Shown here piece after piece: positions 29,801-32,800 of a DNA stretch of 64,000 nt (the first letter of the stretch is position 1; each line of letters begins with the position of its first letter). The DNA is from Coraliomargaritaceae bacterium (GTDB taxonomy: Bacteria; Verrucomicrobiota; Verrucomicrobiia; Opitutales; Coraliomargaritaceae): positions 338,781 through 402,780 of the forward strand of contig CBFHKU010000001.1 in the NCBI GenBank assembly GCA_965656495.1, given 5' to 3'. The position numbers were made by a program.

Positions 29801-32800
29801 GGTATCGAACTATTTCAACGAGTTTTTCTACAGTTTCAGCGCTACCTCCAGGTGTATTTAGGACGATTGAAATTTGCTCTTTCGCATTTTCATCTGCTCT
29901 AAGGTTTTCGATGAAAGTTCTAAAAGGCCTCACTAAATAGGGCGCAATAGGGCCAAAAATCAAGATAACGTCTGTTTGAAGTAAATCTTCCAATGCTACA
30001 ATTCTTTCGCGCGCGGTCTTGTTAAATTGTTTATCAAGCTCACTCATGAATGGATATATTTTTACAAATGTAAATATGTGTCAATAATTTTTCCTATTAA
30101 CCAAATTTGTATGCACAAAAAAAGCCGCAGGGTTGGGCTGCGGCTTTTTGAAAGGGCGTTGTGTTGGATTAGGGCAACTTGGTGGTGCCCATGAGGAATT
30201 TGTCACACTCGCGGGCGACGGCACGGCCTTCGTTGATCGCCCAAACGATGAGGGACTGTCCGCGGCGGACGTCACCGGCGGCAAAGACTTTGTCAACGCT
30301 GGTACGGAATTCGCCGTATTCCGCCTTGATGTTGGAACGGGCGTCCTGTTCAAGCTCAAGTTCCTCCACGATGGTGGCTTCGGGTCCGAGGAAGCCCATC
30401 GCAAGGAGGACGAGGTCGGCGGGGAGGACGCGTTCGCTGCCTTCAACTTTTTTGGGAATGAAGCGTCCGTCTTCGTTGGCCCACTCGATGTTGTGGACGT
30501 GTACGGCTTTGACGTTTCCGTTTTCGTCGCCTTCAAATTTACTGGAGGTGACGAGGTATTGGCGGGGATCTTCGCCTTGAACGGCGGCGGCTTCTTCCTG
30601 GCCGTAATCCATCTTGTAAGTCTTGGGCCATTCGGGCCAGGGATTGTTCTCGGCGCGCTCGGTGGGTGGCTTGGGCATGATCTCAAGCTGGGTTACACTG
30701 GCGCAGCCGTGGCGGAGGGAGGTGCCTACGCAGTCGGTGCCGGTATCGCCACCGCCGATGATGACGACGTTTTTACCCTTGGCGAGTTCGGAGAATTGCT
30801 CGGCCTTGCCTTCTCGAAGGTCCCAAAGTTCTTTGGTGTTGGGGCCGAGGAATTCCATGGCAAAGCGGATGTTGTTGAGCTCGCGTCCTTCGATGGGGAG
30901 GTCGCGGGGCTTGGTGGCACCGCAACAAAGAATGACGGCATCAAATTCGTTAAGGAGATCTTTGGAAGCGATATCTTTACCGATTTCGACTCCGCATTTA
31001 ATGGTGATACCTTCGGCTTCCATAAGCTCGGTGCGTCGGGTGACGGTATCTTTTTCGAGTTTCATGTTGGGGATGCCATACATGAGGAGGCCGCCGGGTC
31101 GGTCGGCGCGTTCGTAAACGGTGACGAGGTGACCGGCCTTGTTGAGCTGGTCAGCGGCGGCGAGGCCGGCGGGGCCGGAACCGACTACTGCGACTTTCTT
31201 GCCGGTGCGTTCGGCAGGGGGTTGGGGGGTCACCCAGCCCTCGGCCCAAGCTTTATCGATGATGGAGCACTCGATGTTCTTAATGGTAACGGGTGGTTCA
31301 ATGACACCCAAAACGCAGGAACCTTCACAAGGAGCGGGGCAAACGCGACCGGTGAATTCGGGAAAGTTGTTGGTTTTGGAAAGGCGTAGATAGGCTTCGT
31401 GCCATTTGTCGCGGTAGACGAGGTCGTTGAACTCGGGAATGAGGTTATTGATCGGACAACCGCTGGCCATGTTGGCGAGGGTCATGCCGGTGTGGCAGTA
31501 GGGGGTACCGCAGTCCATGCAGCGCGCGCCCTGTTTTTGCACGGCCTCGGGATCGAAGGGTTCGTGGATTTCATTCCAGTCATTGATGCGTGCAAGTGGT
31601 TCGCGGTTGGCGATCGTCTTGCGCTCGAATTCTAAGAAGCCTGTTGCTTTGCCCATTTTATTAGAAGTTAGAAGTTAGAAGCTAGGAGTTGGAAGCTAGG
31701 AGTTGGAAGCTAGAAGTTGGAAGAAAAGATTCAGGAAGACGCCAGCACTTTGCCGATATAGCGGTTGAGCATTTTGGCGATTTCGTTGAGTTGATTTTTG
31801 AGTGAGTCTGTCTCGCTGTAGCCGAGATCTTTAGTAAGCCGCAGGTAATAGAGGTATTCGTTAAGCGAGCCTTGAGCGATGTTGTAGAAGCGCGCCTTGT
31901 CAGCGGAACTACGCTTGCCGTAACCTTCCGCAATATTGGCAGGTATCGACACGCCCGCGCGACGTATTTGTGGGCGGAGTCCGAACTTTTCGCTTTCTGG
32001 GAAGGTTTTTGTCATTTCGTATATATGAAGAACAAACTTGTGAGCCTTTTGCCAAATTTGGAGATTTTCGAAGCTTGTGCAGTTTTCAGGTTTATCCATG
32101 GATTCATTCTAACTTCTAACTCCTGTCTTCCAACTCCTATTTAGTGACCTGCTTTGACGTTTTCTTCGAAGGCGGCGAGGATGGCCTCATCGCCTTTGAG
32201 TCCGCGTTCTTCGGCGCGCGCCTGCGCTTCGAGGACGCGTTCGTAGTCCTGTGGCATAATCTTGAGGAATTTCTCTGCGATGGCGGGCCAATCTGCAAGG
32301 ATTGCTTGTCCGCGAGCAGAGCCGGTGAGAGCGACGTGTTTTTCAATGCGGGCTTTGACCATCGCGATTTCATCGTCGTTGCACTCGATTAATTGATAGA
32401 CATTGACCATGTCGGGATTGAGGCGGTTTTTGACGAAGTCGCCGGATTCGTCGAAGACATAGGCGACGCCACCGGACATCCCGGCACCGAGATTGCGGCC
32501 GGTGGTACCGAGATTGATCACCATGCCCCCGGTCATGTATTCGAGGGCGTGGTCACCGAGTCCCTCGATGACGGCTTCGACTCCGGAGTTGCGAACGCAG
32601 AAACGTTCACCTGCCATGCCGGCAATGTAGGCTTCACCGGAAGTGGCGCCATAGAAGCAGACGTTGCCGGTGATGATATTTTCGTGCGCAATAAAGGGTG
32701 ACTCCGCGGGCGGGCGAACGATGATCTTGCCGCCGGAGAGTCCTTTGCCGAGGTAATCGTTGGTGTCACCGGTGACGGTAAAGGTCATGCCCTTGGGGCA

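What a model noticed while it worked through the whole genome (the two positions that open the first line are those of the whole stretch)
31657..32140. 23S-rRNA-intervening-sequence-type ORF cassettes inserted between cistrons of housekeeping operons, polymorphic among co [...]
The two small protein families first known from the intervening sequences (IVS) of 23S rRNA, the four-helix-bundle 'S23p' (g00341, g00683, g00724) and the GxxExxY PD-(D/E)XK protein (g00120, g00821, g01357, g01385, g01394), here sit not in rRNA but in the spacers of protein operons (gltB-gltD, dfp-sensor kinase, metK-ahcY, leuB-alaS, oppC-oppD, beside rpoN), in the operon's orientation; the S23p genes are each bracketed by inverted arms built from their own tandem 6-12-nt repeats, and whole cassettes are present or absent at the same site in close relatives. 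I read them as selfish 'intervening sequences of mRNA': ORF-in-hairpin cassettes that can settle between cistrons because the long stem [...]
Evidence so far: Positions and neighbours: call 119. Flank-to-flank RNA duplexes: g00683 -84.1, g00724 -51 to -56, g00341 -49.5 kcal/mol (arms only 74 and 41 nt: TTAGAAG/TTGGAAG repeats vs CTTCTAA/CTTCCAA); among 556 genes with both flanks >=35 nt these rank 1, 25 and 60 (mean -30.5, sd 13.6); PDDEXK_3 genes rank 12 to 392, so their stems are not generally exceptional. g00341 cassette fills the whole gltB-gltD spacer C1:370437-370920 (484 nt). DNA search of 41 Coraliomargaritaceae genomes with cassette + 300 nt flanks: gltB/gltD site: full-length match (cassette present) in 4 other genomes (one congener G097 92-96%, three of other genera 70-72%), partial in 1, flanks adjoining with only ~1-100 nt between the [...]
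(Added by a program. Inside this text positions count along the whole contig: contig position 338,781 is position 1 of the stretch shown here. "Call 12" and the like, gene names such as g00115 and contig names such as C1 are that model's own, and its searches are not shown. The text may have been shortened before it was handed on; [...] marks where a part breaks off. The agent that wrote the report below was given it as the finding of a first reader that could run no searches.)

Follow-up and report, generated by a model that had tools for sequence, protein, structure and literature searches.

The report
Hairpin-wrapped small gene between gltB and gltD
A small four-helix-bundle gene of the kind first seen inside ribosomal-RNA "intervening sequences" fills the gap between the two glutamate synthase genes, wrapped in mirror-image runs of a 7-base repeat, and it comes, decays and goes among relatives like a semi-selfish insert.

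Summary
Window 31657-32140 (minus strand) is exactly the gltB-gltD spacer. It holds a 122-aa PF05635/TIGR02436 gene between inverted arrays of a 7-nt unit, with 33-nt arms 88% complementary.

- **Beyond chance:** the arm score is 50, against a maximum of 38 in 4000 random genome positions.
- **Other copies:** 3 of the 4 PF05635 genes in the genome have such arms.
- **Same site in relatives:** of 28 loci, 9 carry the cassette, 15 have an 18-56 nt spacer, 3 hold remnants and 1 holds another gene. Two copies are broken.
- **Selection:** median dN/dS is about 0.11.
- **History:** the cassette tree conflicts with the flank tree (AU p 0.0001 and 0.0009).
- **Second site:** another operon spacer holds two different cassette types (35% identity).

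The "selfish cassette between cistrons" reading is partly supported. The RNA and RNase III part is untested, and a G:U wobble test gave no sign of it (30 against 40).

The arms of copies B and D are not private. They belong to array families dispersed across the genome, often as gene-less hairpins. The D arrays occur in all 12 family genomes that carry the matching gene and are rare elsewhere.

This scan has reported the same design before on other DNA. I found no paper linking the two.

The parts
32141..36790 (-). gltB, glutamate synthase large subunit (upstream gene of the operon); its TAA stop lies 1 nt from the upstream arm
   Evidence: ORF. Pfam GATase_2, Glu_syn_central, Glu_synthase and GXGXG.
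31657..32140 (-). whole cassette, which is the whole gltB-gltD spacer (484 nt)
   Evidence: Replaced by 18-56 nt in 15 of 28 related loci.
32107..32139 (-). 5' arm on the transcript: purine-rich 7-nt units (4.7 copies), ending 7 nt before the ORF's ATG
31731..32099 (-). 122-aa four-helix-bundle protein gene (S23p / 23S_rRNA_IVP family)
   Evidence: Best solved relative is 2GSC, E 2.9e-21. Median dN/dS is 0.11 among orthologues.
31661..31723 (-). 3' array on the transcript: pyrimidine-rich 7-nt units (9 copies). 31683-31715 pairs with the 5' arm. The distal 25 nt stay free as the gltD leader.
   Evidence: The same distal units form the whole spacer of two congeners without the cassette.
30169..31656 (-). 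gltD, glutamate synthase small subunit (downstream gene)
   Evidence: ORF. Pfam Fer4_20 and Pyr_redox_2.

Best explanation
The spacer is an IVS-type S23p cassette: a four-helix-bundle gene enclosed by inverted arrays of a short tandem unit, lodged between gltB and gltD in the operon's orientation.

It is an old resident of this spacer in the family. It is inherited mostly vertically, is sometimes swapped between lineages by recombination, and is repeatedly broken or deleted. That makes it a semi-selfish insert, not a part of glutamate synthase.

It belongs to a widespread class whose other members are the ORF-bearing intervening sequences of 23S rRNA and, as gene-less miniatures, dispersed tandem-array hairpins.

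My reading of how it works is as follows.
- The protein is kept by selection. Solved relatives have five chains per entry. I infer that it acts on the element's own arrays, with each protein subfamily going with its own unit.
- I infer that the arms are primarily a sequence-specific array in inverted orientation.
- I infer that on the gltBD transcript the arms also form a 33-bp stem. The host's RNase III could cut this stem as it cuts rRNA IVS stems, which would make the insert tolerable between cistrons.

Shown: the anatomy, the excess over chance, the polymorphism, purifying selection, the discordant genealogy, and the co-occurrence of arrays with the matching gene. Inferred: binding of the protein to the arrays, co-transcription, RNase III cleavage, and any mechanism of spread.
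For: **Anatomy and chance.**

**Class-wide pattern.**
- 3 of 4 copies in this genome have such arms.
- 38 of 73 scored relatives from many phyla have arms above every local control.
- The flanks of 20 family cassettes were printed, and most show complementary arrays of differing units. The ungapped score is 29 or more in 15 of them.

**Old and mostly vertical.** The 9 best-scoring loci among species representatives, plus one partial locus, all lie at gltB/gltD. The cassette and flank trees are broadly alike.

**Selfish-like turnover.**
- Presence needs at least 8 changes on 32 rows, 5 of them forced by starred branches.
- There is a frameshift in G005 and a stop in G032.
- Remnants of 99, 131 and 168 nt occupy the same site.
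- A 90-95% alike relative in two RNA-library runs has 41 letters in place of 480.

**Exchange between lineages.**
- L041 and L042 are 0.90-0.99 identical in the cassette against about 0.80 in the flanks.
- L009 and L010 are 0.67-0.86 identical in the cassette against 0.90-0.97 in the flanks.
- dS is discordant between cassette and gltD.
- AU tests give p 0.00014 and 0.0009.

**Second site.** It holds two cassette types that are 35% identical, with different arms.

**Protein kept.** Median dN/dS is 0.11 over 39 pairs.

**Arrays go with the gene.**
- D-type arrays give 14-75 matches in all 12 genomes with a D-like gene. Among the other 49 genomes, 3 have 14 or more, 3 have 7-9 and 43 have 3 or fewer.
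- That distribution is not the one of the REP-like element.
- A-type heptamer arrays give 5 or more matches in 19 of 39 PF05635-bearing genomes and in 0 of 22 PF05635-free genomes.
- Gene-less D hairpins with 8-20 nt loops occur in three genomes.

**Other points.** RNase III is present in this genome. Contigs of one RNA library bridge both cassette junctions.
Against: - No enzyme for movement is encoded, and no target-site duplication is seen at the borders.
- There are no near-identical copies at different sites, so no recent transposition.
- The array-gene association is confounded. Kin are not independent. PF05635-free genomes are mostly the small ones. G009 has 22 D-array matches with no D-like gene found. 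G027 has 59 B-array matches with no PF05635 found, though it is only 72% complete. The B association is weak: G055 and G026 carry a B-like gene with 2 and 1 matches.
- In G000 itself the A-type unit is almost confined to the cassette.
- In G000 the D and B arrays are parts of composite repeats that include a REP-like palindrome with its own RAYT gene, which could spread them.
- The RNA part has no direct support. G:U is not enriched, the arm helix barely covaries (1 pair with a change on both sides), and only contigs could be laid, so no RNA ends can be seen.
- The breaks in G005 and G032 could be assembly errors in draft genomes.
Confidence: 0.5

Rival explanations
1. A pure 'intervening sequence of mRNA'. 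The arms exist to form an RNA stem that RNase III cuts, excising the cassette from the gltBD transcript so that the insert is harmless. The sequence of the arms is irrelevant; only pairing matters.
For: - A 33-bp stem closes the ORF in the MFE fold.
- The arms abut the gltB stop and end 5-12 nt before the gltD ATG in all 12 aligned orthologues.
- Arms of different copies differ in sequence yet stay complementary.
- RNase III is present.
- RNase III cuts the Coxiella IVS in mid-stem (PMC4990558, passages read).
- Contigs of an RNA library bridge both junctions.
Against: - G:U-type mismatches are not enriched over A:C-type on the sense strand (30 against 40 among 143 mismatches in 37 stems).
- Unit sequences are conserved across genera and phyla instead of drifting.
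- Gene-less hairpins of the same units are dispersed in genomes that carry the gene. An insulating role for one insert does not explain this.
- By duplex energy the stem is unremarkable.
Confidence: 0.2
2. A domesticated host gene. The four-helix-bundle protein serves the cell (for example in nitrogen assimilation or RNA metabolism), and its hairpin is an ordinary regulatory or stabilising structure of the operon.
For: - Purifying selection on the ORF.
- The same site is kept across at least five genera.
- The free distal part of the 3' array serves as the gltD leader, and it is kept in congeners that lost the gene.
Against: - Missing from 15 of 28 loci at this site, including 5 of 6 congeners.
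- 22 of 61 family genomes have no PF05635 gene at all.
- Paralogues sit in unrelated operons.
- Two copies are broken.
- The genealogy is discordant with the flanks.
- Another gene (a PEP-CTERM-type ORF) occupies the same spacer in G037.
Confidence: 0.1
3. Nothing special. Simple-sequence repeats arise by slippage in A+T-rich spacers, and the complementarity of the two arrays around a small gene is incidental.
For: - This genome is rich in short tandem arrays: 1074 TRF rows and about 70 repeat clusters.
- By energy the stem ranks only 313 of 3000.
Against: - The arm score exceeds all 4000 random positions.
- The same layout recurs around relatives in many phyla (38 of 73) and in the family cassettes.
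- Period-7 flanks occur in 11 and 7 of 73 loci, against 0 period-7 windows among 544 controls.
Confidence: 0.05

Closest known systems
ORF-bearing intervening sequences (IVS) of 23S rRNA (Coxiella burnetii helix 45; Leptospira; PMC4990558, abstract and passages read)
   Same: - The same protein family (S23p / PF05635).
- About 430-480 nt in length.
- An ORF enclosed by complementary borders that form a long stem.
- Sporadic distribution and suspected horizontal transfer.
- In that paper's words, an old proposal (Ralph and McClelland 1993) holds that the ORF encodes a component needed for mobility.
   Different: - Here the host is an mRNA spacer between gltB and gltD, not an rRNA helix.
- The arms are tandem arrays of a 7-nt unit.
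- RNase III excision is not shown.
- The ORF is under purifying selection, whereas the Coxiella abstract reports results suggesting that its protein is not made.
REPIN-RAYT systems
   Same: - One gene per genome and subfamily, at a conserved chromosomal site.
- The gene is flanked by inverted copies of a repeat that is also dispersed as many gene-less hairpins.
- The dispersed repeats are found almost only in genomes that hold the gene.
   Different: - The gene is a four-helix bundle with no HUH/Y1 nuclease motif.
- The repeats are tandem arrays of 6-8 nt units, not a single palindrome.
- This genome also has a true RAYT flanked by its own REP-like palindromes.
Over-represented intergenic heptamer repeats: GGGAATC in Xanthomonas, GGGGA(C/T)T in Nostoc (PMC4692102, passages read); cyanobacterial STRR (search listing only)
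   Same: - Tandem 7-nt units in intergenic regions, mostly between co-oriented genes and close to the upstream gene.
- In Xanthomonas, 70-75 cases occur as convergent inverted pairs able to form stem-loops.
   Different: - That paper treats them as G-quadruplex-forming repeats and does not mention S23p (0 occurrences of 'S23').
- Here the arrays enclose a gene.
DGR accessory protein Avd (PMC10053308, one passage read)
   Same: - A homologous fold. That paper says PF05635 resembles Avd.
- Solved PF05635 relatives have five chains per entry.
   Different: - Scores are below the curated cut-offs for bAvd (29.1 against 40) and for NF033474 (33.8 against 80).
- No reverse transcriptase is adjacent. 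The only RVT_1 match in the genome lies on another contig.
Correia/NEMIS-type MITEs of Neisseria, co-transcribed with neighbouring genes and cut by RNase III (recalled; not read)
   Same: Inverted-repeat inserts in transcribed spacers whose RNA hairpin is an RNase III substrate. This is what the cassette would work like on the RNA level.
   Different: Those are gene-less, have defined terminal repeats and a target duplication, and belong to a transposon lineage. None of this is seen here.

Membership tests
PF05635 / TIGR02436 (23S rRNA IVS protein, four-helix-bundle protein) | Match to the family model above the curated cut-off | tested here: met
   PF05635 scores 134.4 bits against a cut-off of 33.8. 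TIGR02436 scores 131.4 against 24. PDB 2GSC matches at E 2.9e-21.
23S rRNA intervening sequence (IVS) | Inserted in a 23S rRNA helix (9, 25 or 45) | tested here: not met
   It lies between gltB and gltD. There is no Rfam match in 31300-32500.
23S rRNA intervening sequence (IVS) | Bordered by complementary sequences that form a long stem around the ORF | tested here: met
   33-nt arms, 88% complementary. The MFE fold closes them. Score 50 against a null maximum of 38.
23S rRNA intervening sequence (IVS) | Excised from the transcript by RNase III | not testable with these tools
   An RNase III gene is present. Only contigs of RNA libraries could be laid, and these show no ends.
DGR Avd | Model score above cut-off, and adjacency to a DGR reverse transcriptase with template and variable repeats | tested here: not met
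   bAvd scores 29.1 (cut-off 40) and NF033474 scores 33.8 (cut-off 80). The only RVT_1 match is on contig C13, whereas the S23p genes are on C1 and C3. Template and variable repeats were not searched.
Transposon / MITE | Encoded transposase, or defined terminal inverted repeats with a target-site duplication | tested here: not met
   The only ORF is the four-helix bundle. No duplication is visible at the borders when filled and empty sites are compared. The inverted arms are arrays of variable unit number.
REPIN-RAYT-like two-part system | A single gene flanked by inverted copies of a repeat that is dispersed as gene-less hairpins, and co-occurrence of gene and repeats across genomes | tested here: inconclusive
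   Met for the D-type copy: all 12 genomes with the gene have 14 or more matches, against 3 of 49 without it, and gene-less hairpins exist. Weak for the B type. In G000 the A-type unit of this finding is almost confined to the cassette. Kin are not independent.
REPIN-RAYT-like two-part system | HUH / Y1 transposase domain in the gene | tested here: not met
   Pfam gives only PF05635 and bAvd for the protein. The genome's Y1_Tnp matches lie elsewhere, at C9 and C15.

The most novel reading that the evidence does not exclude
Four-helix-bundle S23p proteins are the dedicated partners of dispersed tandem-array hairpins. Each protein subfamily goes with its own 6-8-nt unit. One gene-bearing 'master' hairpin sits at a fixed site, in an operon spacer or an rRNA helix, and many gene-less miniatures persist only while the gene is present. 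This would be a two-part replicator of the REPIN-RAYT kind, but without a nuclease. It would tie three unexplained things together: the rRNA intervening sequences, the large S23p family, and the over-represented heptamer repeats of bacteria such as Xanthomonas and Nostoc.
Probability: 0.3. Interest if true: 0.9.

Novelty: new variant of a known kind. Interest (0 to 1): 0.66.

Why it matters
PF05635/TIGR02436 is a very large protein family with solved structures and no known function. 23S rRNA intervening sequences have been unexplained since about 1990, and so have the over-represented heptamer repeats of many bacteria.

This locus shows the IVS design outside rRNA, between two housekeeping cistrons. 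Comparative evidence shows that gene and arms form one unit that is selected, exchanged, broken and lost.

The family-wide co-occurrence of a repeat unit with its matching gene gives a concrete hypothesis that can be tested cheaply: the protein binds its own array.

For annotation, such spacers should be read as inserts and not as operon regulators. Their presence or absence is a marker of strain-level polymorphism inside conserved operons.

Tried and rejected
- **RNAduplex energy as a statistic.** G+C-rich coding controls give long bulged duplexes, so A, B and C are unremarkable (313, 174 and 833 of 3000 as low). I replaced it with an ungapped arm score.
- **Rfam.** No family matched in 31300-32500.
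- **PADLOC.** None of the 4 proteins matched a defence family.
- **Promoter and terminator scan.** It found one promoter-like site inside the 5' arm against 0.6 expected by shuffles, so it is no evidence. It found no terminator-like site.
- **Covariation within the orthologues.** The arm helix is almost invariant, so it says nothing either way.
- **RNA runs.** Only contigs could be laid, so there are no ends, no strand and no expression level. The uncovered bins of X1 mean nothing.
- **STRR literature search.** It was swamped by unrelated 'STRR' terms. Only listings of five cyanobacterial papers were seen.
- **Pattern search for the REP-like palindrome.** I sent it with a wrong spacer length and it matched nothing in G000. 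I repeated it correctly.
- **'All-frame stop codons' as the reason for period 7.** Rejected because many related units (the CAGAAG type) hold no stop.
- **'The arms are Shine-Dalgarno arrays'.** This fits the A type (AGGAG units) but not the D type (CTTAAT units, reversed polarity), so it is not general.
- **DGR link.** Rejected; see the membership test.
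Full report
**What is there.** All genes of interest lie on the minus strand. 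gltB runs 32141-36790 and gltD runs 30169-31656 (Pfam domains). The 484 nt between them (31657-32140) hold one ORF, 31731-32099, of 122 aa.
- The protein matches PF05635 (134.4 bits, cut-off 33.8) and TIGR02436 (131.4 bits). It matches the Avd models only below their cut-offs.
- Its best solved relative is 2GSC (E 2.9e-21). Both solved relatives have five chains per entry.
- On the transcript, the gltB stop is followed after 1 nt by 4.7 purine-rich 7-nt units, and 7 nt later by the ATG.
- After the ORF's stop come 9 pyrimidine-rich units, which end 4 nt before the gltD ATG.
- The best pairing is 33 nt at 88%, and the MFE fold closes it around the ORF.

**More than chance?**
- By duplex energy, no: -55.7 kcal/mol, with 313 of 3000 random pairs as low.
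- By an ungapped arm score, yes: 50, against mean 16.7, sd 3.1 and maximum 38 in 4000 random positions.
- In a genome-wide scan for inverted repeats up to 900 nt apart, 64 merged pairs reach a score of 40. This cassette is one of them. Nearly all the others lie in repeat clusters.

**Other copies in the genome.** There are four PF05635 genes, not three.
- Copy B (C3:150245-150595) scores 45 and has arms of 8-nt units.
- Copy D (C3:105065-105463) scores 82 and has arms of 6-nt units in the reverse polarity.
- Copy C (C3:59881-60237) scores 19. It sits among fragments that resemble the start of a sugar-nucleotidyltransferase gene.
- The five PDDEXK_3 genes exist and score 15-20.

**The same site in relatives.**
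- A DNA search of 61 family genomes found the flanks in 58.
- Of the 30 loci returned, 28 hold both flanks. Nine carry the cassette (431-622 nt, same unit family), 15 have 18-56 nt, three have 99-168 nt, and one (G037) has a 660-nt insert with a PEP-CTERM-type ORF.
- The three intermediate spacers are a run of 5'-arm units alone, a gene-less hairpin with B-type arms, and a decayed stretch.
- Of six congeners, only G005 has the cassette. Part of its 5' side is withheld (it reads N).
- Two congeners keep, as their whole spacer, the distal units of the 3' array.
- Among 80 loci from species representatives, the nine best-scoring ones (L035-L043) and the partial L092 all lie at gltB/gltD. The next best are from other phyla at 49-62% identity.
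- On a tree of 600 flank residues (32 rows, 13 of them with the cassette), presence needs at least 8 changes, and 5 are forced by starred branches. The rows are those that the searches returned, so cassette carriers are over-sampled.

**Selection and history.**
- Eleven of 13 ORFs are intact. G005 has a frameshift and G032 an in-frame stop.
- Of 55 pairs among the 11 intact ORFs, 39 gave an estimate and the rest were dropped as failed or saturated. Median dN/dS is 0.11, against 0.043 for the first 300 codons of gltD. Many dS values exceed 1.
- Several pairs disagree with their flanks: L041-L042 have dS 0.36 in the cassette against 1.56 in gltD, L010-L011 have 0.025 against 0.24, and L009-L010 have 1.08 against 0.25.
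- Sliding windows show the same.
- The cassette columns reject the flank-supported clade (p-AU 0.00014), and the flank columns reject L041+L042 (p-AU 0.0009). The groups were named after I had seen the distances.
- The rest of the two trees is alike, so descent is mainly vertical with some exchange.

**A second site.** Copy B lies between a phasin-like gene and ubiB.
- In the family, that spacer holds the B-type cassette (116 aa) in G000, G005, G007, G006, G003 and G055.
- In G042, G057, G011, G025 and G047 it holds a different cassette of 125-126 aa, with arms of another unit.
- By my reading of the coordinates, it is 0-50 nt in at least 10 genomes and about 90-180 nt in about 10.
- The two proteins are 35% identical.

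**Breadth.**
- Of the 80 loci, 7 could not be scored (4 without ORF bounds, 3 with short flanks).
- In 38 of the 73 scored loci, the arm score exceeds every one of about 90 local control windows.
- The 5' arm is never pyrimidine-rich in these 38.
- Period-7 flanks occur in 11 (upstream) and 7 (downstream) of 73 loci, against 1 of 544 control windows at any period, that one being period 9.
- So the layout is common in this subfamily but is not a rule.

**RNA or DNA?**
- Within the orthologues, the 13-pair arm helix is almost invariant: one pair has a change on both sides.
- 37 of 93 cassettes reached a neutral score of 30 (identical arms counted once). Their 143 mismatches comprise 30 of G:U type on the sense strand, 40 of A:C type and 73 others (p 0.28). 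I therefore find no sign of selection on sense-strand RNA pairing.
- RNase III is present.
- Contigs of one metatranscriptome tile the cassette and bridge both junctions. This is compatible with co-transcription but does not prove it.
- Two other runs hold a 90-95% alike relative with 41 letters in place of 480.

**The arms of B and D are not private.**
- TRF gives 1074 arrays in 2.06 Mb.
- After classification there are 43 B-type arrays, 44 D-type arrays, 49 arrays of a third heptamer type, 137 REP-like palindromes and only 5 A-type arrays, grouped in 70 clusters.
- A composite recurs in these clusters: a B array, a D array, a REP doublet and an inverted D array. One lies in this window at 3880-4360.
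- A Y1 transposase gene flanked by the palindromes is present.

**Arrays across the 61 family genomes.**
- D-type arrays give 14-75 matches in all 12 genomes with a D-like gene (at least 50% identity; broken in G005).
- Among the other 49 genomes, 3 have 14 or more matches: G003 with a gene fragment, G058 with a 45% relative, and G009 with none found. Three have 7-9 and 43 have 3 or fewer.
- The contrasts within genera g1, g7, g11 and g19 agree with this. G009 in g9 does not.
- The REP-like element has a different distribution: it is missing from 8 of the 12 and is present in G053.
- In G007, G024 and G036 the D arrays form gene-less hairpins with loops of 8-20 nt.
- B arrays follow the gene only loosely.
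- A-type arrays give 5 or more matches in 19 of 39 PF05635-bearing genomes and in 0 of 22 PF05635-free genomes.
- Genome size and kinship confound all of these counts.

**What is in print.** I searched 8.1 million PMC papers and bioRxiv.
- The terms 'rRNA intervening sequence protein', 'S23 ribosomal protein', PF05635 and TIGR02436 found 4 papers.
- 'S23 ribosomal' or 'four-helix bundle protein' combined with 'inverted repeats' and 'intergenic' found none.
- PMC4990558 (abstract and passages) gives the stem, the mid-stem RNase III cut, the pentameric four-helix-bundle structure and the old mobile-element proposal.
- PMC10053308 (one passage) says that PF05635 resembles Avd.
- PMC4692102 (passages) describes intergenic GGGAATC arrays, often as convergent pairs, and does not mention S23p.
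- Subscription journals are not covered, and I did not open any supplements.

**Earlier notes of this scan.** They describe the same design, and gene-less miniatures, in many other genomes. Later checks marked parts of two of those reports as fallen.

**Verdict.** The cassette is a real unit that is selected, polymorphic and recombining, of the IVS kind but outside rRNA. 'Selfish insert between cistrons' is the best description of its history. How it spreads and what the protein does are inferred. The RNA-excision step is plausible but unsupported by the one test that I could run.

Noticed in passing
window 3880-4360: A composite intergenic repeat. It runs, in order: a heptamer array (GAACATC type), a REP-like palindrome, an 8-nt array (B type), a 6-nt array (D type), a REP doublet, then the inverted D array. 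The same order recurs at 8 or more loci of the genome.
   Followed up: partly
window 20399-20812, 61886-62369 and 55837-55906: Further repeat clusters of the same modules, and a 29-nt-arm hairpin with a 12-nt loop built from AACGCAGAG/GCGGAG-type units.
   Followed up: no
G000 contig C9:68610-69765: A Y1 transposase (RAYT-like) match at 69024-69299 is flanked on both sides by arrays of the REP-like palindrome. The palindrome has 137 regex hits in the genome.
   Followed up: partly
G000 contig C3:59500-60400 (locus L003): The fourth PF05635 gene has no arms. It lies after a truncated sugar-nucleotidyltransferase-like ORF, and a second short copy of that gene's start follows it.
   Followed up: no
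L023 (G037), gltB-gltD spacer: A 660-nt insert with a roughly 200-aa ORF that has an N-terminal hydrophobic stretch and a PEP-CTERM-like end. It occupies the same spacer in place of the cassette.
   Followed up: no
L035 and L039, just after the gltB stop: A small G+C-rich hairpin (GGCC, four-base loop, GGCC) lies between the stop codon and the 5' arm. At the B site, short palindromes span the stop codon of the upstream gene.
   Followed up: no
window 32106-32133 (-): The units of the 5' arm make a sigma-70-like pair, TTGGAA and TAGAAT 16 nt apart. That would place a transcript start near the ORF's ATG. The count is not above shuffles, and the pair is not visibly kept in the orthologues.
   Followed up: partly
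G027 (family genome, 72% complete): 59 matches to the B-type array, but no PF05635 match was found. This is the clearest exception to the gene-array association.
   Followed up: no
L038-related: G038:C242:3634-4345: Two PF05635 genes in tandem, about 90 nt apart.
   Followed up: no
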